DNA of 60,056 nucleotides from Rhodoferax sp. (GTDB taxonomy: Bacteria > Pseudomonadota > Gammaproteobacteria > Burkholderiales > Burkholderiaceae_C). Under the pieces are notes generated by a model. That model did not search any database. It had not been told where the DNA came from and was given only the letters and a program-made list of their open reading frames with translations. Location: positions 1 to 60,056 of the forward strand of contig JANYJD010000036.1 of NCBI GenBank assembly GCA_025358555.1, written 5' to 3'. Every line of letters begins with the position of its first letter. The first letter of the stretch is position 1. Position numbers and translations under genes: made by a program. Below, piece by piece: positions 42,470-57,025 of this stretch.

Positions 42470-42566
42470 GATATGCGCAGTGCGGGTCGGTGGTTTGTTT
42501 TATATTGAATGACGCGATTCACTCAGTCCCTGCTTTCATGCCTTACTTTGGAGTCATCAAATGAAA
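42470..42566 (+). repeat. decayed copy of the DUF1800 3' end / DUF1501 start junction
   Basis: 42541-42566 (CCTTACTTTGGAGTCATCAAATGAAA) matches 44253-44278 (CCTTACTTTGGGGTCATCAAATGAAA) at 25 of 26 nt. Weaker colinear matches lie upstream (TGCGCAGT, GATTCAC, CCCTG). Confidence 0.7.
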
Positions 42567-44276
42567 TTGTGCATCCGGTATCGACCTATTGAGAAGCTTG
42601 CGTTGGCCGCCTCAGTGGCCCTGCTGGGCGCTTGCGGCGGGGGTCGCGGCGACGCGCCTGCTACAGCGGCTACCGCTGCAACATTCGCAACGGCCGTTGC
42701 AGCGGCTGAAGCATCGCCCTCGGCAGGCCAGGTCAAACCCGTCGCGGCGGTCAAAATGAGTTTGTATGCGGCGGCACGCGCGACTGATCAAGTGAGTTTT
42801 GGGGCTACGCCAGCGCTGGTTGCTGAACTTCAACAACAAGGCTTACCCGCGTGGATCGAGGGGCAATTTGCTCTGCCGGTGTCGCAGATTGTGCCCCCGT
42901 CGTGGGTGATTAATTACGACACCGATGACCCCGCTGCAGGGGCTCGAGCAATGGCTTACTACAGGCAAGAGTTTTGGCGACGCAATCTGTCGTCGACCGA
43001 CCAACTCAGGCAAAGGGTCGCTTGGTCAGTTTTTGAATTCATTCCCGTGGGCGATGGCAACACTTCGATTCGAATCGATCATTACAACCTTCTCCAGAGG
43101 TACGCGTTTGGAAACTATGGCGACTTTCTTCGTGAGCTTTCGGTCCATCCCTCTATGGGTTGGTATCTCAACAACAACATCAACCGCCCCACAACAACAC
43201 AATGCCCGCAATGCACGCCCAACGAAAATTATGCCCGTGAGTTGATGCAGTTGTTCACGCTGGGGGTTGTGCAACTCAACCTCGACGGGTCTATGGTGCG
43301 GGATGCACAGGGTAAGACTAAGGAAACCTATATTCAGAAAGACGTTGAGGAATTGGCGCGGGCGCTGACGGGCTGGCGCTTCGCGCCGAGCAATCCTCCA
43401 GTACCGTCATCGAATTCCACCAATTCGGGCTTCCTTATGGTGCCAGAAAGTCAGGCGTCGCAGCATGACAGTGGAGCCAAGAAAATCTTGGGAGCGCCGT
43501 TTGCTGCCGGAAAGGATGCTCCTCAAGACCTGGACGCTGTTATCACAGTGTTGATGCAGCACCCCAACGTTGCGCCCTTCGTCAGCTTGCGGCTGATCCA
43601 GCATCTTGTAACCAGTAATCCTACTCCGCAATACATTGCAAGGGTGGCCGCCGTCTTTCGCAACAATGGCCAGGGCGTTGCGGGTGACATGAAGGCCTTG
43701 ATTCGCGCTGTTCTGCTGGATGCGGAGGCACGGCGTGGGGACCTGCCGGGTGCAGATACTGCGTCTTTTGGCAAATTGCGCGAGCCAGTGCTCTGGTTAA
43801 CTGCGACTCAACGAGGCCTCGGTTGCAAAGAAATTCTGCGCTACGCCGATGGCAATACAGTGACGCCGAGCAATCAAAACCCTACCGCTCCGCCCAGCAT
43901 TTTCAGCTTTTACCAAGCAGGAGACCGTGCACCCGGCAGCAATTTGCTGGCCCCGGAGCAAAAGCTTTTGACGACCGATGAGCTAACGAATAGGCTTGGC
44001 ACGCTGACATACCTGTTGTTGGACCCCAACCGGAACATTACCAACACAACCCAATCAGGTTGTGATGTCGCCACCCTTGGACAGGCGTTTTCCAAGTCTC
44101 CCAAAGACCTGATCGATTTAATCAGCACCCGCTGGTTCCGGGGTGCCATGCCGCCCACGCTGCGCAGTAATTTGGCTGGCCTGGCTGTGTCTCAAACCTG
44201 GGATTCACCGGACAGGGCCGCTATGGTGCTGTTGCAATTTGCCCTGTCCACACCTTACTTTGGGGTCATCAAATGA
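42561..44276 (+). CDS. DUF1800-family lipoprotein
   Basis: Lipobox LLGAC. DUF1800 hallmarks: NENYARELMQLFTLG, DVEELARALTGW, SQHDSGAKKILG, LMQHPNVAPFVSLRLIQHLV. Some stretches are markedly AT-richer than the rest of the window. Confidence 0.8.
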   Translation: MKLCIRYRPIEKLALAASVALLGACGGGRGDAPATAATAATFATAVAAAEASPSAGQVKPVAAVKMSLYAAARATDQVSFGATPALVAELQQQGLPAWIEGQFALPVSQIVPPSWVINYDTDDPAAGARAMAYYRQEFWRRNLSSTDQLRQRVAWSVFEFIPVGDGNTSIRIDHYNLLQRYAFGNYGDFLRELSVHPSMGWYLNNNINRPTTTQCPQCTPNENYARELMQLFTLGVVQLNLDGSMVRDAQGKTKETYIQKDVEELARALTGWRFAPSNPPVPSSNSTNSGFLMVPESQASQHDSGAKKILGAPFAAGKDAPQDLDAVITVLMQHPNVAPFVSLRLIQHLVTSNPTPQYIARVAAVFRNNGQGVAGDMKALIRAVLLDAEARRGDLPGADTASFGKLREPVLWLTATQRGLGCKEILRYADGNTVTPSNQNPTAPPSIFSFYQAGDRAPGSNLLAPEQKLLTTDELTNRLGTLTYLLLDPNRNITNTTQSGCDVATLGQAFSKSPKDLIDLISTRWFRGAMPPTLRSNLAGLAVSQTWDSPDRAAMVLLQFALSTPYFGVIK

Positions 44277-45625
44277 AACGCCGCCTTTTTTTGAAATCCG
44301 GTGCACCTGTTGGCGTCGCGCTAGGTGCTGCGGGCCTTTTGGGGTCGTTGAGCTTGCCGGGCTCTGCCGCAACCGGCGACTACCGGGCCCTGGTGGTTGT
44401 GTTTTTGACGGGCGGCAACGACGGCAACAATACCCTTGTGCCGACAGACGGCGCGTACCTTGATTACAGCCGTGCCCGGCCTGACCTGGCGTTGGCCAAA
44501 GACAGCCTGGTGGCTTTGGCTGGCAGCAGCGCCGGACACACCTTTGGCGTGCACCCCGCCTTGGCGCCTGTGGCAGCGCTGTATAACCAGCAGCGCCTGG
44601 CCTGGATTGCCAATGCCGGGCCACTGGTAGTGCCTGCCACTGCCCAGCAAGTCATTGCCCATAGCGTTGAGTTGCCGCCTTATTTGCTGTCGCACAGCGA
44701 CCAGCAAAACATGACCCAAGGATGGATGGGTGACGCCGATGCCAGTGGCTGGGCTGGGCGTGCGCTGGAGCAGATGCCTGGCAACCTTAAAAATGCGTTG
44801 GGGGCTGTGACGTTTGACTCCAACCGTACCCTGGTGCTGGGCAAGCAGTCGCGCGTAGCCTTCATGAGCAATGGCGGCCCACGCTACTGGGGCAATGCGG
44901 ATCTGGCCCATCCCGAGCAATTTTGGGCCCAATCCCTCAACCGCATGGCTCAATGGCAATTTACCAACGCCTATGAAGCTGAATACGCACGCACTTTTGG
45001 CGGTGGCGTCGCAGAGTCCACCCTGTTTACCCAGGCGTTCCTGAAGGCTGGCACGCCGCAGGCGAACTTTGAAAGCGATCCGCTGGCGACCAGATTGAAA
45101 TCGCTGGCCTCAGTGTTGCCGGTGTTCAAGTCTTCCGGTTACAAGCGCCAGGTTTTTCTGATTAATTGGGGCAGCTTTGACACCCATACCGGGCAAAAGG
45201 GCAGCGGGGCGACCAGCCAGGACAGCCAGCTTAGCACTCTGGCCAAGGCGCTTGCGGCATTCGACCAGGCCAACCAGGCCGCCGGGTTGAACCTGGATGT
45301 CACCACCCTGGTGATGAGCGAATTTGGCCGCACCTTGCGCCCGGCTTCTGGCGGCGGCTCAGACCATGCCTGGGGCAGCCACTGGTTTGCCATGGGCGGT
45401 GCGGTGGCTGGCGGACAGGTGCTGGGGCAACTGCCCGCCCTGGTGCTGGGTGGGGCAGACGATGCGGACCCGCAACGCGGCGGGCGCTTTGTACCCACCA
45501 CATCGGTAGACCAGGTGGGGGCCAAGATGATGCAATGGATGGGGTTACCCGCAGCGTCGCAGCTGGATGTGTTTCCCAACCTGAAGAATTTTCCTCAAAA
45601 AACACTAAGCCTGTTAAGCGCTTAG
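44273..45625 (+). CDS. DUF1501-family protein with twin-arginine signal
   Basis: Tat motif KRRLFLK. DUF1501 hallmarks: VVVFLTGGNDGNNTLVP and GGGSDHAWGSHWFAMGGAVAGG. The start overlaps the DUF1800 stop (ATGA). Confidence 0.8.
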   Translation: MKRRLFLKSGAPVGVALGAAGLLGSLSLPGSAATGDYRALVVVFLTGGNDGNNTLVPTDGAYLDYSRARPDLALAKDSLVALAGSSAGHTFGVHPALAPVAALYNQQRLAWIANAGPLVVPATAQQVIAHSVELPPYLLSHSDQQNMTQGWMGDADASGWAGRALEQMPGNLKNALGAVTFDSNRTLVLGKQSRVAFMSNGGPRYWGNADLAHPEQFWAQSLNRMAQWQFTNAYEAEYARTFGGGVAESTLFTQAFLKAGTPQANFESDPLATRLKSLASVLPVFKSSGYKRQVFLINWGSFDTHTGQKGSGATSQDSQLSTLAKALAAFDQANQAAGLNLDVTTLVMSEFGRTLRPASGGGSDHAWGSHWFAMGGAVAGGQVLGQLPALVLGGADDADPQRGGRFVPTTSVDQVGAKMMQWMGLPAASQLDVFPNLKNFPQKTLSLLSA

Positions 45626-45662: not shown

Positions 45663-48338
45663 ATGGACATTCTTGGTACAGAGCAGGCAGACGTTTACGA
45701 CCAGACCGCACAAGGTCCGGGTGAGGGGAATACGTATCGCGGTTTGGGTGGCAACGACACTATCCGCATGTACAACGGCACGGCGGTGCCAGGTGCCGGG
45801 GTTGACATCATTGAGCACCTCGTGTCCGCCGACACATGGCGCACACTGGAAGTGGCGTTTTGGGACTCGCCCGCCGGCGTGGTGGTGGACCTGGCTGCGG
45901 GTTACGCTGATGATGGATGGGGCTCACGTGATACTTTAGTTGGAATATTTAAAGGCGCGCATGGCAGTTTTCACGATGACCGCTTTTTGGGCGATGCAGG
46001 CAACAATACCTTCTGGCCCAATGGCGGCAAAGACACTATTGATGGCCGTGGCGGCATTGACACTGTGGGCTTGGGCTGGACAGCCGGAGATCCGACGGAC
46101 CTGAGCAACTACAACATTGCGGTCTCCATCGACGGCGCGTTGGCAACCATCACATCGAAAACCGACAAAAACCTTCGGTATGAACTCGCCAACGTTGAAC
46201 GCTTGAGTTTTTGGGACGGTACCGTCGGCCACGACTTTGACATTGCCGACTTCATGAGCCCCAAGGCCATGGCTGAGCAGGGATTGACTGGCGCGGCCAC
46301 CCAGCGATGGAATTCCGCTGCGGCCATGGGGACCCCTGTGGGCGTGAGCTTCAGTTTTGTAGAAAGCGCGCCAGCATCAGGCCCGGGCGCCACCGGTTTT
46401 CGAAGTTTCAATGCGACCGAGCGCCAAACAGTGCGTGACTTGCTCAACAGCACCAGCGCAGTGACCGGCCTGACCTTCACCGAAGTGGCTGAGGCAGGTG
46501 CCACCAATGGGCAAATTCGCTTTGGCGTCAGCGCCCAAAGTGCCACCAAAGGCGTGGCCTTCATGCCAGATGTGTCTGCCGCCAACCCCACGGCGGGTGA
46601 CATCTGGATTGACTCCGATTCAATGCTGGCGCTGTCCCCCGGCACAGAAGGCTACGCCGCGCTGCTGCACGAGCTGGGCCATGCTTTGGGCTTGCGCCAT
46701 CCGCGCAATGTGGATGCGGGCGATGCCTGGGCGCAGCAACTGCGCGCAGCGGATGACAAAACAAGTTTCAGCGTGATGTCGGGCACCGCATCAGTCGATG
46801 GCCTGTTTCGCGCCGACTGGGGCGTGCTCGATGTCGCCGCACTGCAGTATCTTTACGGCAGCAAGGCTGTCAATGGCGGTGATACCGTTTACCCAGTGGG
46901 TGGGGCTGACGCATTGGCGCAGCGCACCTTGATTGACGTCGGCGGCATTGACACGATTGACGCCACAGCGTCCCAAGTTGGCGTGTCAATTGACCTGGCC
47001 GCTGCGCATCTCAGCAGCGTGGGTTTGAGCCGTGACGGCCTGGCACCAGTTGAAAACCTGGGGATCGCCGTGGGCACGGTGATTGAAAACGCCATTGGCT
47101 CCAATTTGGATGATGTGCTGGTTGGCAATGCGCTAGCCAACGCGCTGTATGGCCGTGGCGGAAATGATTGGATCGATGGGGGTGCCGGTTTTGACATTGC
47201 CGTGTTTGCGGGCAAGCGGAGCGACTACTTTGTGAGCAGTGGTTTTGGCAAGGTATTTGTGGCCGCACGCGATGGCGTCAGTGGCTTTGACACCCTGCTC
47301 AATATCGAACGCCTTTCGTTTGACGATGGCGACGTCAATCTGGGCGCATCGGCCGTTGCAGCTGACATCAAGTTCACGACTGACAAGGGTGTCGCCGCAC
47401 AAGGAACCCTGCCGGACCCCAGTGACCAGTTGCGGACAGCCACGTCATACAGCAAGTCGGTTGAAGCCGTCCACGGCAGTGTGACCGTCAGCGCAACGGG
47501 CAGCTATGCCTACGTCCCCAATTCGGCCTACACCGGTGAAGACAGCTTTGGCTACCGTGTCAGTGATGGCAAAGGAGGCGCCAATGTGTACTGGGCGTAC
47601 ATCACGATAAACCAGTCCAACGAAGTGTCAAGCATTCCCGTGTCCTTGACCGGCACGGCGGGGGCCGACAACCTTTTAGGCGGCAATGGCGCAGATACGC
47701 TGAGCGGCGGCGCTGGCAACGACACACTCACCGGTTTGGGTGGAAATGATGCCATTGATGGCGGCACAGGCACTGACGTCGCTGTGTACAGCGGCAGCCG
47801 TCAGAACTATGTGCTGACAAAAACCGGCGGCGGCTTTACGGTGACTGACAACTCGGGGCTGGAAGGAACCGATACCCTGCAAAATGTGGAGCGCCTTAAG
47901 TTCTCTGACCGTGGCATTGCTCTGGACGTCGGCCCCGCGCAGTCGGCAGGAGAAACCCAACTGCTGCTGGGCGCGGTGCTGGGCAAAGACTTGCTGGCCA
48001 CCAAGAAGCCGCTGATCGGAACGGCCATTGACCTGTTTGACCAGGGGTACACCTTCCAGCAACTCTCCGGCGCCATCATGCGGCTGAACATTTGGGGCAT
48101 CCTGGCCAATGGGGGCCAGCCCAGTGCGACCAGCACGCAAATCGCAAACTACCTGCTGACAACGGTGAACAAAGCTGCGCCTGACGCGGCAACACTTGCC
48201 GCCGCTGTCACAGCCTTAAACACCGAGACCGGGCCAGCGCAAGGCAATTTTCTGTGGCATCTGGCGGAATCGGCTGCCAACCAGACCCAGGTCGGACTGG
48301 TTGGGCTGGCATTGACCGGGCTGGAGTTTGGCGGTTAA
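45663..48338 (+). CDS. RTX-repeat serralysin-like (M10-type metzincin) metalloprotease with cadherin/VCBS-like domain and conserved C-terminal module
   Basis: No signal peptide (MDILGTEQADVYDQ). Zinc site HELGHALGLRH and a possible Met-turn, FSVMSG. RTX nonapeptides GGNDWIDGGAGFD and GGNGADTLSGGAGNDTLTGLGGNDAIDGGTGTD. Ig-like segment GSYAYVPNSAYTGEDSFGYRVSDGKG. The NVERL/NIERL motif occurs three times. The terminal 156 aa are shared with the next two genes. Confidence 0.8.
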   Translation: MDILGTEQADVYDQTAQGPGEGNTYRGLGGNDTIRMYNGTAVPGAGVDIIEHLVSADTWRTLEVAFWDSPAGVVVDLAAGYADDGWGSRDTLVGIFKGAHGSFHDDRFLGDAGNNTFWPNGGKDTIDGRGGIDTVGLGWTAGDPTDLSNYNIAVSIDGALATITSKTDKNLRYELANVERLSFWDGTVGHDFDIADFMSPKAMAEQGLTGAATQRWNSAAAMGTPVGVSFSFVESAPASGPGATGFRSFNATERQTVRDLLNSTSAVTGLTFTEVAEAGATNGQIRFGVSAQSATKGVAFMPDVSAANPTAGDIWIDSDSMLALSPGTEGYAALLHELGHALGLRHPRNVDAGDAWAQQLRAADDKTSFSVMSGTASVDGLFRADWGVLDVAALQYLYGSKAVNGGDTVYPVGGADALAQRTLIDVGGIDTIDATASQVGVSIDLAAAHLSSVGLSRDGLAPVENLGIAVGTVIENAIGSNLDDVLVGNALANALYGRGGNDWIDGGAGFDIAVFAGKRSDYFVSSGFGKVFVAARDGVSGFDTLLNIERLSFDDGDVNLGASAVAADIKFTTDKGVAAQGTLPDPSDQLRTATSYSKSVEAVHGSVTVSATGSYAYVPNSAYTGEDSFGYRVSDGKGGANVYWAYITINQSNEVSSIPVSLTGTAGADNLLGGNGADTLSGGAGNDTLTGLGGNDAIDGGTGTDVAVYSGSRQNYVLTKTGGGFTVTDNSGLEGTDTLQNVERLKFSDRGIALDVGPAQSAGETQLLLGAVLGKDLLATKKPLIGTAIDLFDQGYTFQQLSGAIMRLNIWGILANGGQPSATSTQIANYLLTTVNKAAPDAATLAAAVTALNTETGPAQGNFLWHLAESAANQTQVGLVGLALTGLEFGG

Positions 48339-48375
48339 GCGAATGCCTTCAAGGTAGGGGAGAATCTGGCTGACC

Positions 48376-50097
48376 ATGGCAATCTTCACCCCGTACACGC
48401 CTACGAGCCTCATTGCAAAAGCGCTGTTCAACTTTGATGCCTTCGGCAGTGGCAATTTCAAGTTGGCTGGCACGGTGAACGTGTCCGTGTCGGACAGCTT
48501 TACGTACGCCCAATACCTCAACGCGTTCCCGGCAATTTCAGCGGATGTTTATACCTCGTTGAGTTCGGGCAATGGCAATTGGACGGCCGCACAACTTGCG
48601 AATGTCAACCTGATTGCGGCCACGTATTCAAATTTCATCAATTTGAAATTCGCATCAGTGGCCAATGATTCCGGCCTGTCGCCTGCCAATGTGGGATTCG
48701 CATCCGACATCAACATCAGCCTGATTTACCGCCGGGATGCGCCATTTTCAGGCGAAAGCGCGTTGAACGGCGATGCGGATTTTGGCTATGCCGGAGGTCG
48801 CGGTGACATCGTTCTCAATGTCAATGGCTTCGGCTCGCGTGGATTGAGCAACGATATCAGCCTGGATTCTTCAACGTTTGGTTTTCATGCGTTGATGCAT
48901 GAAATGGGGCATTCGCTTGGCTTGTCGCATCCGCACAGTTCCATTGCGCGCGGCGTCACCACCCTGACCGCGGATTTCGCCGCCATCACGGGGACAGGTT
49001 TTGCGCAGCTCGGCTTTCGCATCAACAGCGCGCTGGACATGAACAAGGAATATTTTTCCATCATGTCTTACGACGACCAGACGCCAGCCGGCGCGCCAGA
49101 TACCTTTGCGCAAACGCCCATGATCCTGGACGTGATCGCGCTGCAAAGCGCCTACGGCGAAGGCGGCGGAACCTCAGGCGCTGGCAATGATGTCATCACG
49201 CCAGGCGGCGATGGGGGCGTCAACTCCTACCGCACTTACTTTGACACCGGCGGCACGGACACCATCAATCTGGCCAACTATGCCCAGGGCGCCTACTTGA
49301 ACATGGGCACAATCATCGCGGGGGCAGCGCACTGGGTCGGAGTTGCGATGAGCGCCGCAGATTCAAACGCCATGATCAACCTGGGCAAGGACCCCGCCAG
49401 CCTTCGATGGTTTTACGGCGAGTACGAAAATGCGGTGGGCAGTGCGGCAGCCGATGTGATTGTTGGCAATGCCCTGAATAATTCGATTGATGGGCAAGGT
49501 GGCAACGACACCATCGACGGCGGCGCGGGCATTGACACCGCGTTGTACGCAGGCCCGCGCTTGAACTACACACTGGCCAAAACCAGCAACGGCTTCTCCG
49601 TGGCTGACATCACCGGCGCGGCGGGCATTGACACGTTGCAAAACGTGGAGCGGCTCAAGTTCTCCAACGGCGCCATTGCCCTGGATGTGGGCGCGAGAGA
49701 GTCTGGCGGTGAAGCCCAACTGTTGCTGGGTGCAGTGTTGGGCAAGGACTTGCTGGCGACCAAGAAACTTCTGATCGGGACTGCGATTGACCTGTTCGAC
49801 CAAGGTTTCACCCTGCAACAGCTTTCAGGCGCCATCATGCGGCTCGACATTTGGGGTGCCCTGGCCAATGGCGGACAGGCCGCTGCCACTAATGCACAGA
49901 TTGCTGGTTACTTGCTTGCAACGGTGAACAAAGCCACGCCAGACGCCACGTCACTGGCGGTTGCCGTTACTGCACTGGACACCGAGACGGGCGCCGCGCA
50001 GGGCAGCTTCCTGTGGCACTTGGCTGAATCCGCAACGAATCAGACGCAAGTGGGTTTGGTCGGGCTGGCGACAACGGGGCTGGAGTTTGCCGCCTGA
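48376..50097 (+). CDS. RTX-repeat serralysin-like metalloprotease with the same C-terminal module
   Basis: No signal peptide. Zinc site HEMGHSLGLSH, Met-turn FSIMSYDD, RTX GQGGNDTIDGGAGID. Over the last 156 aa it is 125/156 identical to the upstream gene (hand count). Confidence 0.8.
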   Translation: MAIFTPYTPTSLIAKALFNFDAFGSGNFKLAGTVNVSVSDSFTYAQYLNAFPAISADVYTSLSSGNGNWTAAQLANVNLIAATYSNFINLKFASVANDSGLSPANVGFASDINISLIYRRDAPFSGESALNGDADFGYAGGRGDIVLNVNGFGSRGLSNDISLDSSTFGFHALMHEMGHSLGLSHPHSSIARGVTTLTADFAAITGTGFAQLGFRINSALDMNKEYFSIMSYDDQTPAGAPDTFAQTPMILDVIALQSAYGEGGGTSGAGNDVITPGGDGGVNSYRTYFDTGGTDTINLANYAQGAYLNMGTIIAGAAHWVGVAMSAADSNAMINLGKDPASLRWFYGEYENAVGSAAADVIVGNALNNSIDGQGGNDTIDGGAGIDTALYAGPRLNYTLAKTSNGFSVADITGAAGIDTLQNVERLKFSNGAIALDVGARESGGEAQLLLGAVLGKDLLATKKLLIGTAIDLFDQGFTLQQLSGAIMRLDIWGALANGGQAAATNAQIAGYLLATVNKATPDATSLAVAVTALDTETGAAQGSFLWHLAESATNQTQVGLVGLATTGLEFAA

Positions 50098-50105
50098 GTG
50101 CTGCA

Positions 50106-52496
50106 TCAAAAAACTGGCGGGCCGAGATCAATGCCCGTGGCGGCCAGGCCGACAAGCCCCACTTGGATTTGATTGTTTGACGATTCAGCCAAATGCCACA
50201 GGAAGTTGCCTTGGGCTATGCCACCTTCCGAATCCAGCGATGCAACTGCGGTAGCCAACGCAGCGGCGTTTGGCGCAGTCTTGTTCACCGTTGTCAGCAG
50301 GTAGTTTGCAATCTGGGCGTTGGTAGCGGTCTCGGCACCGCCATTGGCCAACAATCCCCATATTGGCAAACGCATCAGCGCCCCGGCCAAAATCTGGGTT
50401 GAGTAGAGGCCCGAGTCATAAAGATCGGTCACGGTGCCGATCAACGGTTTTTTCGATTGGAGCAGGGTGTTGCCCAAAACAGCGCCCAGCAAAAGCACTG
50501 AGTTGCCTGCCGATTGCCCCAAAGCCGTGTCAAACGCCACTCTGTCATCCGAGAACTGCAGGCGCTCGATATTTGACAGCGTGTCAACGCCGTCCTGGCT
50601 AGTCGTGCCGCTCACCGTGAATCCGGTGGCTGTGGCGGCTACTGTGTAAGCTGCACGGGCTCCGGTAAAAATAGCCGTGTCAATGCCGGCGCCCCCATCA
50701 ATCGTGTCGTTGCCCCGGTTGCCACGCAGCAGATTGTTGGCGGCGTTGCCGATCAGGACGTCGTCACCCAAACCGCCGATGGCATTTTCAATGACCGAAC
50801 CGATGCCAATGGTCAACTCCCCCGTGCCTGCGTTGGATTTGTGCCCGGCTACCAAGTCAAGACGCACAGCGGTGGCGGCGGCTGCGGCGTTCAAGGTATC
50901 AATGCCGCCGGTGTCGTTCAGCGTCGGGTTGGCGGCCGCAAACTCGTTGGTCAAAATATACTGCGAGTCCGCCGTGACAGGCGACCCCCAGGCCCGTACC
51001 GTGAGGCTGTTGAACGTCGCAATTTGCCCTGAGACTTTGTCAGTGACCTTCAGGGTCCAGGTCCCATCGCTGATTTCGCCCAGGAACGCGGTCGAGCCGA
51101 TGGTGAAAGTGGATGGCCAGCCTGGCTCGGCTGTGGTCAGGTCCGGCGCGCCTTGAACCAGGTTGCGCGTCAGCGGTTGGTCGAACAAGGTTACGGTGGT
51201 TCCGCCGGGTGAGGTGATGGTGGCATTTAGCTGGCTGGGGCTTGCGGCAGTGAGGTTCAGGTCAAACTCCATGCGCTCGATGCGCACGTTATGGGTCACG
51301 ATGGCTGTGGCGGTGAACCCCGCTGCACTGTTGTCCGGGATCGCCCCGCTGGGAGCCGTTGAGACGCCTTCTGCACTTTGCCAGTTGGCGACGGTGCCGG
51401 CAGGCCGGAACCACGATTCTGCCAAGCGAACCGCTGCCGAAACGTCCATCAGGCCATAACCAAAATCGCGGGAGAAATGCATGCCGCCCAAGTTCCAGTC
51501 GCTGCCGTGGTTTTGCGTCCAGCTGGTGTTGGCGACATCTACCTTGCGCGCGGTGAGCGCCAGAATGGTGGAGACATCCCGAAAACCCAACTTGGGGTTA
51601 GCCTGCAGCATCAGTGCGGCAGCGCCTCCTACCATGGGGCCAGAGTAGGACGTGCCCTGGTTTTGATACGCATAGTCACCGTCAGCGCCCGCAGTCGTGT
51701 TGTAGCCGGCGGCGCCCTGTACGTCGGCCGAAGGAATCCCGAAGCCCTGGTTGTCCGATTGGGCTCCGCTGGAAACGCCGCCCGGCGCGGTCACCAATAG
51801 GCTGGCGCCGGCAGTGGAATACGCTGTAGCGGCCCCCGTCTCTGTCACAGCGCCGACGGCGATGGTGAGCCTGCTGCCGGTGAAGTTGGACAAGGATGTG
51901 TCGGCGTGGTTGGCACGCTCGTTGCCGCCCGAGACCTCGATCACCATGCCCAAGCCGCCCCGGGCTTCGCTGGCGGCGCGTACCAGTGCCGCACCCCAAT
52001 CGCGATCAGCCTGAGAGCCCGAAGCGCCGAAGTTCTCGGCAAACGCCGGGTCTTGTCCCCACGAGTTAACGCTCACGCCGGCACCTGCCGCCAGGTTGGC
52101 GAGAAAGAGGTTGGCGGAGTTGGCCCCAGCCGCGATGGCCAAGCCCGGCACAATTTTGGCGTCGTAAGCGACCCCAACACCGCCTATGCCGTCGTTGCCC
52201 GCCATGCCGACGATGGAGCCGACCACCGTACCGTGGGAATTACCCGCGCCGACGAACCCCTGTCCAGTGGTGCCGCGCACCGCGTCAAAGGCCAGATTGG
52301 GCAGCAGGTTGGCGACCAGCGAGGGTTGGGTAAGGTCAATGCCGTCATCGTTGACGGCGACCACGACGCCTTTGCCAGTGTAGGTATCCCACGCCGAGAG
52401 CACATTGATGTCAAGTCGGGAAGTGCCACCGCGCTGCCCGGTGTTGACCAGGTACCACTCAGACGCAAAAAGCGGGTCATTGAACGTTTTAGCCAT
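50106..52496 (-). CDS. subtilisin-family (S8) serine protease with proprotein-convertase P-domain, RTX repeats and the same C-terminal module
   Basis: AAGGAG Shine-Dalgarno sequence before the ATG; no signal peptide. Catalytic triad contexts VAVNDDGID, GNSHGTVVGS and GTSYSGPMVGGAAAL. P-domain-like segment (RIERMEFDLNLT...ITSPGGTTVTLF...GTWTLKVTD). RTX: GNRGNDTIDGGAGID. The tail aligns to the tails of the two metalloproteases. Confidence 0.8.
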   Translation of the reverse strand: MAKTFNDPLFASEWYLVNTGQRGGTSRLDINVLSAWDTYTGKGVVVAVNDDGIDLTQPSLVANLLPNLAFDAVRGTTGQGFVGAGNSHGTVVGSIVGMAGNDGIGGVGVAYDAKIVPGLAIAAGANSANLFLANLAAGAGVSVNSWGQDPAFAENFGASGSQADRDWGAALVRAASEARGGLGMVIEVSGGNERANHADTSLSNFTGSRLTIAVGAVTETGAATAYSTAGASLLVTAPGGVSSGAQSDNQGFGIPSADVQGAAGYNTTAGADGDYAYQNQGTSYSGPMVGGAAALMLQANPKLGFRDVSTILALTARKVDVANTSWTQNHGSDWNLGGMHFSRDFGYGLMDVSAAVRLAESWFRPAGTVANWQSAEGVSTAPSGAIPDNSAAGFTATAIVTHNVRIERMEFDLNLTAASPSQLNATITSPGGTTVTLFDQPLTRNLVQGAPDLTTAEPGWPSTFTIGSTAFLGEISDGTWTLKVTDKVSGQIATFNSLTVRAWGSPVTADSQYILTNEFAAANPTLNDTGGIDTLNAAAAATAVRLDLVAGHKSNAGTGELTIGIGSVIENAIGGLGDDVLIGNAANNLLRGNRGNDTIDGGAGIDTAIFTGARAAYTVAATATGFTVSGTTSQDGVDTLSNIERLQFSDDRVAFDTALGQSAGNSVLLLGAVLGNTLLQSKKPLIGTVTDLYDSGLYSTQILAGALMRLPIWGLLANGGAETATNAQIANYLLTTVNKTAPNAAALATAVASLDSEGGIAQGNFLWHLAESSNNQIQVGLVGLAATGIDLGPPVF

Positions 52497-53665: not shown

Positions 53666-56600
53666 TCACATATTGCGCCGATACTGCCCCCCGACTTCAA
53701 ACAGCGCATTCGTAATCTGCCCCAGCGAGCAGACGCGCACCGCGTCCATTAGCACTTCAAACACGTTCTTGTTCTCAATCACTGCCTGCTGAAGGCGTTT
53801 CAGCATGGCGGGTGATTCGCTGGCGTGCAGCGCGTGGAAGTCAGCCAGCCGCTTAAGCTGGCTTTGCTTTTCTTCGTCGGTGGAGCGGGCCAGCTCCAGC
53901 TTGTCCTGCACGGCGTCGCCATGCGGGTTGCGGAAGGTGTTCACACCAATGATGGGCAGCTCGCCGGTGTGTTTGAGCATTTCATAATGCATCGATTCGT
54001 CTTGAATCCTGCCGCGCTGATAACCTGTTTCCATCGCGCCCAGCACGCCGCCGCGCTCGGCGATGCGCTCAAACTCCATCAGCACCGCCTCTTCCAGCAG
54101 CTCGGTGAGTTCTTCGATGATGAACGCGCCTTGGGACGGATTCTCGTTCTTGGCCAGGCCCCATTCGCGGTTGATGATGAGCTGGATGGCCATGGCGCGG
54201 CGCACGGAATCTTCGGTCGGCGTGGTGATGGCTTCGTCAAACGCATTGGTGTGCAGGCTGTTGCAGTTGTCGTAAATGGCGATCAGCGCCTGCAGCGTCG
54301 TGCGGATGTCGTTGAACTGGATTTCCTGCGCATGCAGGCTGCGCCCCGAGGTCTGGATGTGGTACTTGAGCTTCTGGCTGCGCTCGTTGGCACCATATTT
54401 TTCCTTCATGGCCACCCCCCAGATGCGGCGCGCCACACGGCCCATCACGGTGTATTCCGGATCCATGCCGTTGCTGAAGAAAAAGCTCAAATTCGGAGCA
54501 AAGTCATCGATGTGCATGCCGCGCGCGAGGTACGCTTCAACAAATGTCAGGCCGTTGCTGAGCGTGAATGCCAGTTGGGAAATCGGGTTGGCTCCGGCCT
54601 CGGCAATGTGGTAGCCGCTGATGCTCACGCTGTAGAAATTGCGCACGCGGTTGTGCACAAAATATTCGGCAATGTCGCCCATCACCTTCAGGCTGAATTC
54701 GGTGGAGAAGATGCAGGTGTTCTGGCCTTGGTCTTCTTTCAGGATGTCGGCCTGCACGGTGCCGCGCACGTTTTCCTGCACCCACTCCCTGATTTTCTGG
54801 CTTTCCGTGTCGGTCGGTTCGCGGCCATTGTCGGCCTTGAATTTGTCCAGATTCTGGTCAATCGCCGTGTTCATGAACATGGCCAGAATGCTGGGCGCCG
54901 TGCCATTGATGGTCATGCTGACGCTGGTGCTGGGGCTGCACAGGTCAAAGCCGCCGTACAGCACCTTCATGTCATCCAGCGTGGCAATGGATACGCCGCT
55001 GTTGCCCACCTTGCCGTAGATGTCGGGGCGCAGGTCGGGGTCGTTGCCGTACAAGGTGACCGAATCAAACGCAGTGGACAGTCGTTTGGCGGCCATGCCG
55101 CTGCTAAGCAATTTGAAGCGCGTGTTGGTTCTGAAAGCGTCGCCTTCGCCGGCGAACATGCGGGTGGGGTCTTCGCCTTCGCGCTTGAAGGCAAAGGTGC
55201 CAGCCGTGTAGGGATAGCTGCCGGGCACGTTGTCCAGCATCAGCCACTTCAATATTTCGCCGTGGTCTTCATACTGGGGCAGGGCCACTTTGCGGATCGT
55301 GGTGCCGCTTAAAGACTTGGTGGTCAGCGCGGTGCGGATTTCCTTGTCGCGGATTTTGACCACGTATTCATCGCCGGCATAGGCTTTTTGCATTTCGGGC
55401 CATTGGGCCAGCAGCTTGCGTTCTGCCGCGCCAAGCAGGCCATCACGCTGCCGGGCCAGGTCGTTGACAGCTTCAACGGCGCGGTGCCGGTCTGGCTTGT
55501 CGGTTTGCAGCATGGCCGCCGTGGCGTTCAACTGCTGAATTTCACGGGCCACGCAGGCTTGATCGCGCGCACGCTTTTTGTAGCCGCGCACGGTCTCGCT
55601 GATCTCGGCCAGGTAGCGCGTGCGGGCCGCTGGCACCACGGGCGTCTGGTTTGTGCTGTGGCGGACGTTGACCACCGGCAGCAAGCCAGGGACAGCACCG
55701 CCCGTGTTGATATTCTTCCCCTTCAGATCGTCGGATGTAGCCTGGTCGGCACCCCGATCCAGCGCCACGCCCAGCGCTGCCAGGCGGGGTTTCATCGCTT
55801 GATAGAGTGCCGTCACGCCGTCGTCGTTAAACCGCGCCGCCATCGTGCCAAACACCGGCATCTGGTCAGCCGGCGTGGTCCAGGCCTCTTTGTTGCGCTG
55901 CACCTGTTTGGCGACATCGCGCAGGGCATCGAGCGAGCCTTTGCGGTCAAACTTGTTGATCGCCACAAACTCGGCAAAGTCCAGCATGTCAATTTTCTCA
56001 AGCTGGCTGGCGGCGCCAAACTCGGGCGTCATCACGTACACGGGCACGTCCACCAGCGGCACGATGGCCGCGTCGCCCTGACCAATGCCGGAGGTCTCGA
56101 CCACGATCAGGTCAAACCCGGCCACCTTGCAGGCAGCGATCACGTCCGGCAGGGCTTTGCTGATTTCGCTGCCAAACTCCCGGGTGGCGAGACTGCGCAT
56201 GAACACTCTGGGCCCGTTGCTCCATGGGCTGATGGCGTTCATGCGGATGCGGTCACCCAGCAATGCGCCACCGCTTTTGCGCCGGGACGGGTCAATGCTG
56301 ATCACGGCCACGCGCAGGCTGTCGTTCTGGTCCAGCCGCAGACGGCGGATCAACTCATCAGTGAGTGACGACTTGCCCGCACCGCCCGTGCCGGTGATGC
56401 CGACAACAGCTACATTTTTTGTAGCTGCTTGTGCACGTACAGCAAGGGCTAGAGCCTCATTTTCCTGGGAACTCTCGATGGAAGTGATCAACTGGGCCAG
56501 TGCACGCCAATTGGCCTCGGAATGGCCCTGAATCGCCGCGATGTCTTTGGGTGCATAGGCTGTCAGGTCTTTGTCGCAGCGCATCACCATTTCGCCAATC

Positions 56601-57025
56601 ATGCCGGCCAGGCCCATCTTCTGGCCGTCTTCCGGGCTGAAGATGCGCGCCACGCCATAGGCCTGCAACTCGCGGATTTCCGGCAGCACGATGACGCCGC
56701 CGCCGCCGCCAAACACCTGAATGTGCTCGCCACCCCGGCTCTTGAGCAGGTCCACCATGTATTTGAAGTACTCCACATGCCCGCCCTGGTACGAGCTGAT
56801 CGCAATGCCCTGCGCGTCCTCCTGCAGGGCGGCGGTCACCACTTCATCAACGCTGCGGTTGTGCCCCAGGTGGATCACCTCCGCGCCCATGCCCTGCAAG
56901 ATGCGCCGCATGATGTTGATGGCAGCGTCGTGGCCGTCAAACAGGCTGGCGGCGGTGACGAAGCGCACCTTGTGGGTGGGGCGGTAGTTGGCCAGGGCTT
57001 TGTATTCGGCGGAGAGGTCGGTCAT
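53666..57025 (-). CDS. icmF: fused isobutyryl-CoA mutase (B12-binding domain + MeaB-like GTPase + mutase catalytic domain)
   Basis: 1119 aa. N-terminal B12 domain ([24 protein letters not shown]), central G-protein P-loop ([16 protein letters not shown]) and a C-terminal methylmalonyl-CoA-mutase-like barrel ([22 protein letters not shown]). Confidence 0.9.

What the first reader, a model, noticed from the sequence alone, without database searches (positions are those of the whole stretch)
47770..50687. One unassigned C-terminal module shared by three proteases of two catalytic classes
The last 156-193 residues of all three protease ORFs are colinear homologues. The module starts at a G(T/I)D(V/T)A(V/L/I)(Y/F)(S/A/T)G segment, followed by DTLxN(V/I)ERLxFSD. 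It continues with LLLGAVLG...KKPLIGT..DL(F/Y)D.G....AIMRL.IWG.LANGG....T.AQIA.YLL.TVNK..P.A..LA.AV.AL..E.G.AQG.FLWHLAES..NQ.QVGLVGLA.TG and ends there. By hand count the two metalloprotease tails are 125/156 identical. The S8 tail is roughly half to 60 percent identical by eye. The catalytic parts are unrelated (metzincin against subtilase) or much more diverged. None of the tails ends in the serralysin-type extreme C-terminal secretion motif I remember (acidic residue followed by hydrophobic residues, as in DxxV). The layout, a beta-strand NVERL unit followed by an Ala/Leu-rich and probably helical region, recalls the DUF4214-type tails of some RTX proteins. I cannot assign it to a named family. 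It may be a shared secretion, anchoring or sorting tag that targets a protease set to one destination.
Basis: seen in the sequence. Interest (0 to 1): 0.8.

Follow-up and report, generated by a model that had tools for sequence, protein, structure and literature searches.

The report
Divergent DUF4214 tail on secreted proteins
Three neighbouring proteases share a real, strongly conserved 190-residue tail that is a diverged, lineage-specific version of the poorly understood DUF4214 tail of calcium-binding exported proteins, and it probably marks many different proteins for type I export and perhaps for retention on the cell surface.

Summary
Three ORFs end in colinear tails of 189, 189 and 193 aa that are 59-75% identical: an M10-like metalloprotease, a metzincin and an S8 subtilase. 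Each tail has two parts. The first is a ~50-aa beta unit (GxDxAxYxG...DTLxNVERLxFSD) that caps the RTX beta-roll. The second is a ~140-aa eight-helix domain.

Pfam, NCBIfam and PDB sequence searches miss the helical part. Profile-profile comparison aligns it end to end with genuine PF13946 (DUF4214) tails that follow the same ERLxF unit in other RTX proteins (prob 94-96%, E 1e-7 to 4e-9; shuffled controls ≤0.5%). AlphaFold models of both have the same topology, and both weakly hit phycobilisome-linker domains.

The variant is almost confined to Comamonadaceae (Rhodoferax and relatives), with at least 11 carriers in one genome. It is almost always C-terminal and sits on many passenger types and on passenger-less ~230-aa proteins. 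Synonymous sites are saturated but dN is low, so this is old paralogy under strong constraint. A complete PrtD-type T1SS flanks one carrier in a related locus, and two PrtD-type ABC genes flank another.

Best reading: a T1SS export tail, possibly also a surface-retention domain by analogy with Psh. It is a new variant of a known kind, of moderate interest.

The parts
45663..48338 (+). P1, 891 aa: N-terminal RTX-like region, serralysin-like M10 metalloprotease, M10_C, Big_9/cadherin-like Ig domain, RTX repeats, tail
46080..46235 (+). P1 first internal copy of the NVERL beta unit (..ANVERLSFWDG), with no helical domain after it
   Evidence: approximate borders
47187..47342 (+). P1 second internal copy of the beta unit (GFDIAVFAG...DTLLNIERLSFDDG), with no helical domain after it
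   Evidence: (tblastn E 6e-8 to 2e-6 against the three tails)
47769..47918 (+). P1 tail, beta unit GTDVAVYSG...DTLQNVERLKFSDR (RTX beta-roll C-terminal cap)
   Evidence: SapA model positions 356-408; RTX block V / LipA matches
47919..48335 (+). P1 tail, 139-aa eight-helix divergent double-DUF4214 domain; the last ~11 residues (..GLALTGLEFGG) are predicted disordered and are the candidate T1SS end motif
48376..50097 (+). P2, 573 aa: metzincin (HExxHxxGxxH-type zinc site, Astacin/M10 hits), RTX repeats, tail
49528..49677 (+). P2 tail, beta unit GIDTALYAG...DTLQNVERLKFSNG
49678..50094 (+). P2 tail, 139-aa helical DUF4214-like domain
50106..52496 (-). P3, 796 aa: S8 subtilase, P-domain, M10_C-like beta-roll, RTX repeats, tail; convergent with P2, stop codons 8 bp apart
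50538..50687 (-). P3 tail, beta unit GIDTAIFTG...DTLSNIERLQFSDD
50109..50537 (-). P3 tail, 143-aa helical DUF4214-like domain ending ..TGIDLGPPVF

Best explanation
The three proteases are substrates of a type I secretion system (T1SS). Their shared tail is a Comamonadaceae-specific, strongly diverged version of the 'RTX cap + double DUF4214' C-terminal tail found on many RTX proteins. The proposed mechanism runs as follows. The unfolded protein is exported C-terminus first through a PrtD/AprD-type ABC transporter, a HlyD adaptor and a TolC channel. The transporter recognises the extreme C-terminal segment (...SxxNQxQVGLVGLAxTGLx[FY]xx). Outside the cell, Ca2+ folds the RTX beta-roll, which the NVERL beta unit caps. 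The eight-helix DUF4214-like bundle then folds and binds a common partner on the producer's own surface, most likely LPS O-antigen or a surface layer, so that a whole set of enzymes and adhesin-like proteins stays cell-associated. What is shown: the homology, the architecture, the paralogue expansion, the purifying selection and the T1SS gene linkage in relatives. What is inferred: export by T1SS. What rests on analogy only: surface binding.
For: DUF4214 homology:
- hhalign of the helical-domain alignment (A3, 37 sequences) was run against bona fide PF13946 tails that share the ERLxFxD context. It gave prob 94.1% (E 1.3e-7, local) and 95.7% (E 3.9e-9, global) over 132-133 columns running to the last residue.
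- A reversed control and 30 column-shuffled controls scored 8-15, against 49 for the real comparison, with prob ≤0.5%.
- A generic DUF4214 alignment gave prob 44%, E 2e-4, in the same register.

Structure:
- AlphaFold models of the window tail (pLDDT 83) and of a canonical tail, P0311 (pLDDT 78), both have 6 strands followed by 8 helices at matching positions.
- Both hit the same phycobilisome-linker PDB entries: E 0.07 with TMt 0.44 for the window tail, and E 0.01 with TMt 0.47 for P0311.

T1SS substrate features:
- RTX repeats lie directly upstream of each tail, and 36 of 44 carriers have RTX repeats.
- The N-termini have no signal-peptide-like region, judged by eye.
- The module ends within 14 residues or fewer of the stop codon in 58 of 61 complete copies.
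- TolC, HlyD and two PrtD-type ABC genes lie next to a carrier in L025, and two PrtD-type ABC genes lie next to one in L035.

Tag-like behaviour:
- 57 loci were found, almost all in Rhodoferax and other Comamonadaceae. Ca. R. randersensis has at least 11 carriers, often in tandem.
- Passenger domains include M10, M12, S8, C2, CAP, FG-GAP, DUF5122, Big_5 and He_PIG.

Constraint:
- The helical domain is the best conserved part of the proteins: 80% identity against 55% for RTX/beta and 36% for the catalytic region in P1/P2.
- dN is 0.12-0.31 while synonymous sites are saturated (pS 0.68-0.75).

Precedent for surface action:
- Psh (PP_1794) of P. putida is an RTX + C-terminal DUF4214 protein. It needs an AprD/HlyD/OMF T1SS for export. 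It protects only the producing cell, and its authors propose that it binds O-antigen (preprint 10.64898/2026.09.02.748959).
- In segmented filamentous bacteria, DUF4214 is called a likely surface-anchoring domain shared by several surface proteins (PMC12780176).
Against: - No T1SS genes lie in the 60-kb window, and only 2 of about 57 related loci show them within 6 kb.
- The Pfam PF13946 HMM does not hit any of 44 carriers.
- The DUF4214 hallmark LYxxxLGRxPDxxGLxxW is lost in repeat 1 and reduced to 'PD' in repeat 2, so any ligand-binding function may have changed.
- Surface binding by DUF4214 is itself only a hypothesis in the cited papers; the Psh/O-antigen link rests on modelling.
- In L027 and L038, and probably L055, the module is internal and followed by another RTX block and a different C-terminus. 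There the helical domain cannot be the terminal signal.
- No localisation, secretion or binding data exist for these proteins.
Confidence: 0.6

Rival explanations
1. The whole tail is only an extended T1SS recognition and secretion domain. It would be comparable to the lipase ABC-transporter recognition domain, or to the 82-aa RsaA signal. It has co-evolved with a lineage-specific PrtD-type transporter and has no role after export.
For: The module is at the extreme C-terminus in 58 of 61 copies. It is strongly conserved among paralogues with unrelated passengers. A complete PrtD-type T1SS lies next to the carrier in L025, and two PrtD-type ABC genes next to the one in L035. The terminal motif G-[LIM]-x-[YF]-x(1-6) is shared with canonical DUF4214 tails.
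Against: The domain is a confidently predicted globular eight-helix bundle (pLDDT >90), whereas T1SS signals are normally short and unstructured. DUF4214 also occurs in proteins without RTX and in monoderm bacteria, where T1SS is irrelevant. The module is internal in L027, L038 and L055, with a separate C-terminus behind it. Passenger-less RTX + module proteins, conserved in synteny across genera, would be pointless if the module were only a signal.
Confidence: 0.22
2. The helical domain is a self-association or co-assembly domain. The abundant passenger-less ~230-aa proteins would form a coat or lattice, and enzymes carrying the same domain would dock into it, giving an S-layer-like scaffold rather than LPS binding.
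For: Many stand-alone RTX + module proteins exist. The Psh-expressing strain shows a large protein aggregate in envelope extracts. The phycobilisome-linker fold is a protein-protein assembly module. The domain is slightly hydrophobic (GRAVY +0.3 to +0.44, pI ~4.5).
Against: There is no evidence of oligomerisation. No S-layer is known in Rhodoferax as far as I know (own knowledge).
Confidence: 0.12
3. The similarity reflects recent gene conversion or domain shuffling between neighbouring genes and carries no functional meaning.
For: The three genes are adjacent, and carriers often lie in tandem in relatives.
Against: Synonymous sites in the tails are saturated (pS 0.68-0.75) just as in the rest of the genes, while dN is only 0.12-0.31. 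The same module is conserved in unlinked loci and across genera.
Confidence: 0.02
4. The Ala/Leu/Gly-rich helical tail is a membrane-inserting or pore-forming segment, as in RTX cytolysins.
For: It has a positive GRAVY score, few charges, and motifs such as LLLGAVLG and VGLVGLA.
Against: It is predicted as a compact soluble eight-helix bundle homologous to DUF4214 and the PBS linker. The helices are 5-19 residues long, mostly too short to span a membrane. It is attached to hydrolases and Ig-like passengers, not to acylated toxin domains.
Confidence: 0.04

Closest known systems
C-terminal 'ERLxFxD + two DUF4214 (PF13946) repeats + SESPENQxxLIGxIxxG[MI]xY' tails of RTX proteins (e.g. P0299, P0304, P0311, P0313 retrieved here)
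   Same: The order is the same: RTX, then a GxDxAxFxG...DTLxN[IV]ERLxFxD beta unit, then AxD, then eight helices, then S-x-x-N-Q, then a G-hydrophobic-x-aromatic end at the C-terminus. Profile-profile probability is 94-96% end to end. The predicted topology and the PDB neighbours are the same.
   Different: The hallmark LYxxxLGRxPDxxGLxxW is replaced by LLLGAVLGxxxLxxKxPLxG in repeat 1 and by YLLTTVNxxAPDAxTLAxAV in repeat 2. The Pfam HMM no longer detects the domain. Its two halves no longer resemble each other. The variant is confined to Comamonadaceae and expanded to at least 11 copies per genome.
Psh (PP_1794), the phage-shielding RTX-DUF4214 protein of Pseudomonas putida KT2440 (bioRxiv 10.64898/2026.09.02.748959)
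   Same: It is a small protein made of RTX repeats plus a helix-rich C-terminal DUF4214 domain, exported by an AprD/PrtD-type T1SS and acting on the producer's own surface. The ~225-230-aa passenger-less relatives of the module have this architecture.
   Different: The window proteins carry protease passengers. The relatives are not next to O-antigen genes but, for one subgroup, next to a TlpA-like/DUF4266/DUF3570/ApbE cluster. The phage-shield function is untested.
Serralysin/AprA/PrtG-type T1SS substrates with Peptidase_M10_C
   Same: They are metzincins with an RTX beta-roll, no Sec signal, and PrtD-type ABC exporters.
   Different: Serralysins end shortly after the beta-roll with a short signal and an acidic + hydrophobic extreme C-terminus (own knowledge: Ghigo & Wandersman 1994). 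Here a 140-aa folded helical domain is added, and the ends are LEFGG, LEFAA and IDLGPPVF.
Caulobacter SapA / RsaA (T1SS-exported, LPS-anchored S-layer system)
   Same: The NCBIfam SapA model is the best hit for all three proteins and covers the protease, RTX and NVERL unit. It is a precedent for a T1SS-exported metalloprotease retained at the surface (Ford et al. 2007 J Bacteriol 189:2226; the citation was seen, the content is from my own knowledge). RsaA binds O-antigen (PMC6978808).
   Different: The SapA match stops at model position ~426 of 644, at the end of the beta unit. The helical domain has no similarity to the SapA C-terminal half or to the RsaA anchoring domain.
Phycobilisome linker domain (PF00427; PDB 3nph, 3pru, 3osj, 2ky4)
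   Same: These are the best structural neighbours of both the window module and a canonical DUF4214 tail. DUF4214 proteins fall in the same Gene3D superfamily, 1.10.3130.20. One retrieved DUF4214 protein also carries a PF00427 annotation (P0298).
   Different: The similarity is weak (E 0.01-0.07, TM 0.44-0.47). There is no sequence hit, and the biology is entirely different.
C-terminal sorting domains defined by paralogue families (T9SS CTD, PEP-CTERM, GlyGly-CTERM)
   Same: The genomic signature is the same: one conserved C-terminal homology domain on many otherwise unrelated exported proteins of one lineage.
   Different: The fold, export route (T1SS) and processing are different. No sortase-like partner was identified.

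Membership tests
DUF4214 (Pfam PF13946) | Match to the Pfam HMM at or above the gathering score | tested here: not met
   No PF13946 hit at E≤10 for the three tails. None at E≤1 for the full proteins. None at E≤1e-3 in 44 carriers.
DUF4214 (Pfam PF13946) | Significant profile-profile homology to bona fide members | tested here: met
   hhalign gave prob 94-96%, E 1.3e-7 / 3.9e-9, 132-133 columns end to end against PF13946-annotated RTX tails. It gave prob 44%, E 2e-4 against a generic DUF4214 alignment. Reversed and shuffled controls gave prob ≤0.5%.
DUF4214 (Pfam PF13946) | Hallmark repeat motif LYxxxLGRxPDxxGLxxW ... SxEF | tested here: not met
   Repeat 1 reads LLLGAVLGKDLLATKKPLIG. Repeat 2 reads YLLTTVNKAAPDAATLAAAV. 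Only 'PD' and the trailing (A/S)ES..NQ survive (alignments).
DUF4214 (Pfam PF13946) | All-alpha fold of the phycobilisome-linker superfamily | tested here: inconclusive
   An eight-helix bundle is predicted with pLDDT >90, with the same topology as the canonical tail P0311. PBS-linker PDB hits come first but are weak (E 0.07, TM 0.44).
RTX-type T1SS substrates | Glycine/aspartate nonapeptide (RTX) repeats N-terminal to the C-terminal signal | tested here: met
   PF00353 hits lie directly upstream of each tail: P1 673-706, P2 355-388, P3 573-607. 36 of 44 carriers have them.
RTX-type T1SS substrates | No N-terminal Sec/Tat signal peptide | tested here: inconclusive
   By eye the N-termini (MDILGTEQADVYDQ.., MAIFTPYTPTS.., MAKTFNDPLFAS..) lack an n/h/c region. 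No signal-peptide predictor was available.
RTX-type T1SS substrates | Uncleaved secretion signal at the extreme C-terminus | not testable with these tools
   Position is consistent: the module ends ≤14 residues from the stop codon in 58 of 61 copies, and the last ~11 residues are disordered but conserved. Signal function needs secretion assays.
RTX-type T1SS substrates | Genetic linkage to ABC transporter, HlyD adaptor and TolC genes | tested here: inconclusive
   None in the window. Present next to carriers in L025 (TolC, HlyD, two PrtD-type ABC genes, all above NCBIfam cut-offs) and in L035 (two PrtD-type ABC genes). Absent within 6 kb in the other loci.
Serralysin-type C-terminal secretion motif | Extreme C-terminus made of an acidic residue followed by three to four hydrophobic residues | tested here: not met
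   The ends are ..GLEFGG..GLEFAA and ..GIDLGPPVF. Relatives end ..GLAYM..GLAYGW and ..GLDYL.
Psh-like RTX-DUF4214 surface shield | Small protein made only of RTX repeats plus a C-terminal DUF4214 domain, T1SS-dependent, cell-autonomous surface action | tested here: not met
   The three window proteins carry protease passengers of 380-700 aa. The architecture is met only by passenger-less relatives elsewhere, such as P0012 and P0049. Function and similarity to PP_1794 were not tested.
Phycobilisome linker (PF00427) | Pfam HMM match, and a role in phycobiliprotein assembly | tested here: not met
   No PF00427 hit. There is only weak fold similarity. The organism is a Comamonadaceae heterotroph.

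The most novel reading that the evidence does not exclude
In Rhodoferax-like Comamonadaceae the diverged DUF4214 tail is a dedicated address label. It takes a dozen or more unrelated T1SS exoproteins per cell (proteases, CAP proteins, propellers, Ig-repeat proteins) to one common receptor on the producer's outer surface, creating a cell-bound exoproteome. The syntenically conserved passenger-less ~230-aa form would act as the basal coat or shield (Psh-like). It would be functionally tied to the adjacent TlpA-like/DUF4266/DUF3570/ApbE envelope cluster.
Probability: 0.25. Interest if true: 0.65.

Novelty: new variant of a known kind. Interest (0 to 1): 0.4.

Why it matters
DUF4214 is one of the commonest unexplained domains on secreted and surface proteins, and only in 2026 did a first functional clue appear (Psh). 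This lineage offers a natural experiment. One strongly constrained version of the domain is attached to many different passengers in the same cell, occurs alone, and in rare cases is internal. That arrangement makes it possible to separate 'export signal' from 'surface retention' by simple truncations and reporter fusions. It also shows that current Pfam and NCBIfam models miss whole subfamilies of this tail, so T1SS substrate repertoires in freshwater Comamonadaceae are under-annotated. If retention is confirmed, the tail would be a compact T1SS surface-display tag.

Tried and rejected
1. Direct family and structure-sequence searches of the tails (Pfam at E≤10, NCBIfam at E≤10, PDB phmmer and profile hmmsearch) found only the beta unit (SapA model 356-426) and one chance PDB hit.

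2. The single exhaustive representative search was run with an alignment that still contained RTX repeats. It was swamped by giant RTX proteins (71,118 hits). Only about 36 of the listed 150 are true module carriers, 229-2124 aa long, with the module at the C-terminus.

3. The search for homologous proteins returned only proteins of 256 aa or fewer and no distant relatives.

4. An internal duplication within the module was not detectable (hhalign of the two halves, prob 0.06%).

5. Recent gene conversion was rejected because synonymous sites are saturated.

6. tblastn against plasmids found only the beta unit in Azospirillum and Rhizobium RTX proteins. The Azospirillum M10_C protein I inspected has a different repeat tail, not DUF4214.

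7. A membrane-insertion reading was rejected on the predicted globular fold.

8. The window was searched for T1SS genes from 25 kb to 60 kb and none were found. The region from 9 to 25 kb was not scanned with Pfam.

9. Ford et al. 2007 on SapA could not be read because it is not held.

10. The DUF4214 bait used was a consensus written from memory. It served only to fetch real proteins, all 76 of which carry a precomputed PF13946 annotation.
Full report
OBSERVATION

The window holds three adjacent ORFs:
- P1, 45663-48338(+), 891 aa
- P2, 48376-50097(+), 573 aa
- P3, 50106-52496(-), 796 aa, convergent with P2

Pfam and NCBIfam give these domain assignments:
- P1: Peptidase_M10, M10_C, Big_9 and RTX.
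- P2: a metzincin zinc site (Astacin/M10) and RTX.
- P3: Peptidase_S8, a proprotein-convertase P-domain, an M10_C-like beta-roll and RTX.

Their last 189, 189 and 193 residues align colinearly with one single-residue gap. These tails lie at window 47769-48335, 49528-50094 and 50109-50687. Identities are 75% (P1/P2), 61% (P1/P3) and 59% (P2/P3). The catalytic parts are 36% identical (P1/P2) or unrelated.

ANATOMY

The tail is two units.

(a) The first is a ~50-aa beta unit, GxDxAxYxG...DTLxN[VI]ERLxFSD.
- It matches positions 356-426 of the NCBIfam SapA protease model.
- In Foldseek it matches the C-terminal cap of RTX block V of CyaA and the LipA beta-roll.
- It occurs twice more inside P1 without the helical part.
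- It is widespread in RTX proteins of other bacteria.

(b) The second is a ~140-aa all-alpha domain.
- AlphaFold2, using a 30-sequence alignment, predicts six short strands followed by eight helices. Mean pLDDT is 83 and exceeds 90 across the helices.
- Only the last ~11 residues (..GLALTGLEFGG) are disordered.
- The domain is acidic (pI ~4.5), has few charged residues, is rich in Ala, Leu, Gly and Thr, and has no cysteine.

WHAT THE HELICAL DOMAIN IS

Pfam (E≤10), NCBIfam, and PDB sequence and profile searches find nothing for the helical domain.

Foldseek puts phycobilisome-linker (PF00427) domains first, but weakly (3nph: E 0.07, TM 0.44). A 2026 preprint states that DUF4214 proteins fall in the phycobilisome-linker Gene3D superfamily, so I tested DUF4214 directly.

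1. A bait written from my memory of the DUF4214 consensus retrieved 76 real proteins. All carry a precomputed PF13946 annotation.
2. A subset of them shows exactly the context seen here...DTLxNIERLxFxD-x-x-A-x-D..AGQAYRLYQAAFxRxPD..(second repeat)..SESPENQxxLIGxIxxG[MI]xY-COOH. Examples are P0299, P0304, P0311 and P0313.
3. hhalign of my helical-domain alignment (A3, 37 sequences) against this subset gives probability 94% (local, E 1.3e-7) and 96% (global, E 3.9e-9). The alignment covers 132-133 columns from the first to the last residue.
4. Against a generic, messier DUF4214 alignment the result is 44%, E 2e-4, in the same register.
5. A reversed control and 30 column-shuffled controls score 8-15 against 49 for the real comparison, with probability ≤0.5%.
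6. An AlphaFold model of the canonical tail P0311 has the same six-strand, eight-helix order at matching positions. It hits the same PBS-linker PDB entries (E 0.01, TM 0.47).

I conclude that the module is a strongly diverged double-DUF4214 tail. The hallmark LYxxxLGRxPDxxGLxxW has decayed. In repeat 1 it reads LLLGAVLGxxxLxxKxPLxG. In repeat 2 it reads YLLTTVNxxAPDAxTLAxAV. This explains why the Pfam HMM fails and why the two halves no longer match each other.

CENSUS AND CONTEXT

Distribution:
- A scan of one genome per GTDB species found 57 loci. Nearly all are in Comamonadaceae: Rhodoferax, Polaromonas, unnamed MAGs and one Rubrivivax.
- L009, from Comamonadaceae MAG JAYVNK01, is syntenic with the window at 85-89% nucleotide identity.
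- Copy number is high. Ca. Rhodoferax randersensis has at least 11 carriers and Ca. R. odensensis about 9, often in tandem.

Carriers:
- They range from 225 to more than 1475 aa.
- Passenger domains include M10, M12, S8, calpain-like C2, CAP, FG-GAP, DUF5122 propeller, Big_5 and He_PIG. 36 of 44 carriers have RTX repeats, and none hits PF13946.
- In the 50%-identity representative library about 36 carriers of 229-2124 aa appear among the top hits, again with the module at the C-terminus.
- N-termini show no signal-peptide-like region by eye.
- Of 61 complete copies, 58 end within 14 residues of the stop codon.
- In L027 and L038, and probably in the truncated L055, the module is internal. In L027 and L038 it follows an N-terminal RTX block and is followed by 245-360 residues with another RTX-like block and a different C-terminus.
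- Many relatives are passenger-less ~225-230-aa proteins made only of RTX repeats plus the module.

Secretion genes:
- No T1SS genes lie in the window between 25 and 60 kb.
- In L025 a carrier of more than 1475 aa is followed by TolC, HlyD and two tandem PrtD-type ABC genes, all above NCBIfam cut-offs.
- L035 has two PrtD-type ABC genes beside a degraded carrier.

SELECTION

Between the window paralogues, synonymous sites are saturated in the tails, as they are elsewhere in the genes (pS 0.68-0.75). dN in the helical domain is only 0.115 (P1/P2) to 0.31. The helical domain is the most conserved part of the proteins: 80% identity, against 55% for the RTX/beta region and 36% for the catalytic region. 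This excludes recent gene conversion. It indicates old paralogy under strong purifying selection, as expected if all copies must fit one common partner.

MECHANISM

Shown:
- homology to DUF4214 tails
- the RTX architecture
- the C-terminal position
- the paralogue expansion
- the selective constraint
- T1SS linkage in two relatives

Inferred:
- The proteins leave the cell by a PrtD/AprD-type T1SS, which recognises the conserved, disordered extreme C-terminus. That end, G-[LIM]-x-[YF]-x(1-6), is shared with canonical DUF4214 tails.
- Ca2+ then folds the RTX roll, capped by the NVERL unit.

By analogy only:
- The folded helical bundle keeps the proteins on the producer's surface.

The analogy rests on two sources.
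- Psh (PP_1794) of P. putida is an RTX + C-terminal DUF4214 protein. Its export needs a restored AprD/HlyD/OMF T1SS. It protects only the producing cell, and its authors propose, without proof, that it binds O-antigen.
- In segmented filamentous bacteria, DUF4214 is described as a likely surface-anchoring domain on several surface proteins.

Three observations argue that the helical domain is more than a secretion signal:
- the internal copies
- the passenger-less proteins
- the occurrence of DUF4214 outside T1SS organisms

Its nearly invariable terminal position argues that the tail also provides the signal.

RIVALS

- A pure extended secretion or recognition domain (0.22).
- A self-assembly or docking domain (0.12).
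- A membrane-active segment (0.04).
- Gene conversion (0.02, contradicted).

COMPARISON AND NOVELTY

The nearest known thing is the DUF4214 tail of RTX proteins, and functionally Psh. Membership of PF13946 in the strict sense (HMM match and hallmark motif) fails. Homology at the superfamily level is well supported.

The architecture 'protease or other cargo + RTX + DUF4214' is already visible in databases, with serralysin-like cargos listed. This is therefore not a new kind of system. It is a new, lineage-restricted, unannotated variant with unusually high copy number.

The DUF4214 hunch and the 'shared tag' idea hold. 'Unassigned' and 'protease set' are too narrow, and the function remains untested.

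VERDICT

This is a real feature. It is a new variant of a known kind. Interest is about 0.4. Confidence in the combined explanation is 0.6: about 0.9 for the DUF4214 homology, about 0.8 for T1SS substrate status, and about 0.4 for surface retention.

Noticed in passing
L001 10001-13428; L003 5997-9613; L004; L005; L048 5806-9386; L032 6858-10166(-); L059 4980-8779: One subgroup of passenger-less RTX + module proteins (229-304 aa, N-terminus MA[VI]I.GKF.SG.AEV) sits directly upstream of a TlpA-like thioredoxin / DUF4266 / DUF3570 / ApbE cluster, on the same strand with an 18-24 bp gap. This holds in at least 7 genomes, including a Rubrivivax. The link is unexplained.
   Followed up: partly
L025 4508-10450(-); L035 1201-4689(-): The T1SS next to module carriers has two tandem PrtD-type ABC transporter genes, both above the TIGR01842 cut-off, rather than one. 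In L025 HlyD and TolC genes lie with them. This suggests a heterodimeric T1SS ABC exporter.
   Followed up: partly
window 47360-48103 versus L009 around 4576/4577: The syntenic MAG (JAYVNK010000105, 85-89% nt identity) lacks 744 bp, in frame, inside the P1 orthologue. The deletion joins the internal NIERL unit to the second half of the helical domain (protein P0107). It may be a real deletion or an assembly collapse between repeated units.
   Followed up: partly
L027 5896-7632; L038 1957-3351; L055 136-1440: Here the module is not C-terminal. In L027 and L038 an N-terminal RTX + module is followed by 245-360 residues with another RTX-like block and a different C-terminal end (..NNLGLTGYGFLAANFG in L027). 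In L055, whose ORF is cut at both ends of the contig, the module is followed by about 300 residues of Calx-beta-like repeats.
   Followed up: partly
window 42561-45625(+): A DUF1800 / DUF1501 gene pair lies immediately upstream of P1 on the same strand, with a 37-bp gap. It may be co-transcribed with P1 and P2. Its relation to the proteases is unknown.
   Followed up: no
window 712-9333(+): A 2873-aa ORF looks by eye like a cyclic beta-1,2-glucan synthase (NdvB/Cgs-type: glycosyltransferase plus C-terminal glycoside-phosphorylase-like region). It was not scanned against any family library.
   Followed up: no
window 53666-57025(-): A 1119-aa ORF looks by eye like a fused MeaB-like GTPase / B12-dependent acyl-CoA mutase (IcmF-type). 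This is ordinary metabolism and was not scanned.
   Followed up: no
L050 3185-4693(-); L059 2-1807(-): Two M10-like RTX proteases carry only the first ~45 residues of the helical domain (..AGxxxLLxGAVLG..DL[MF]D) before the frame degenerates or the contig ends. They may be decaying or frameshifted carriers.
   Followed up: no
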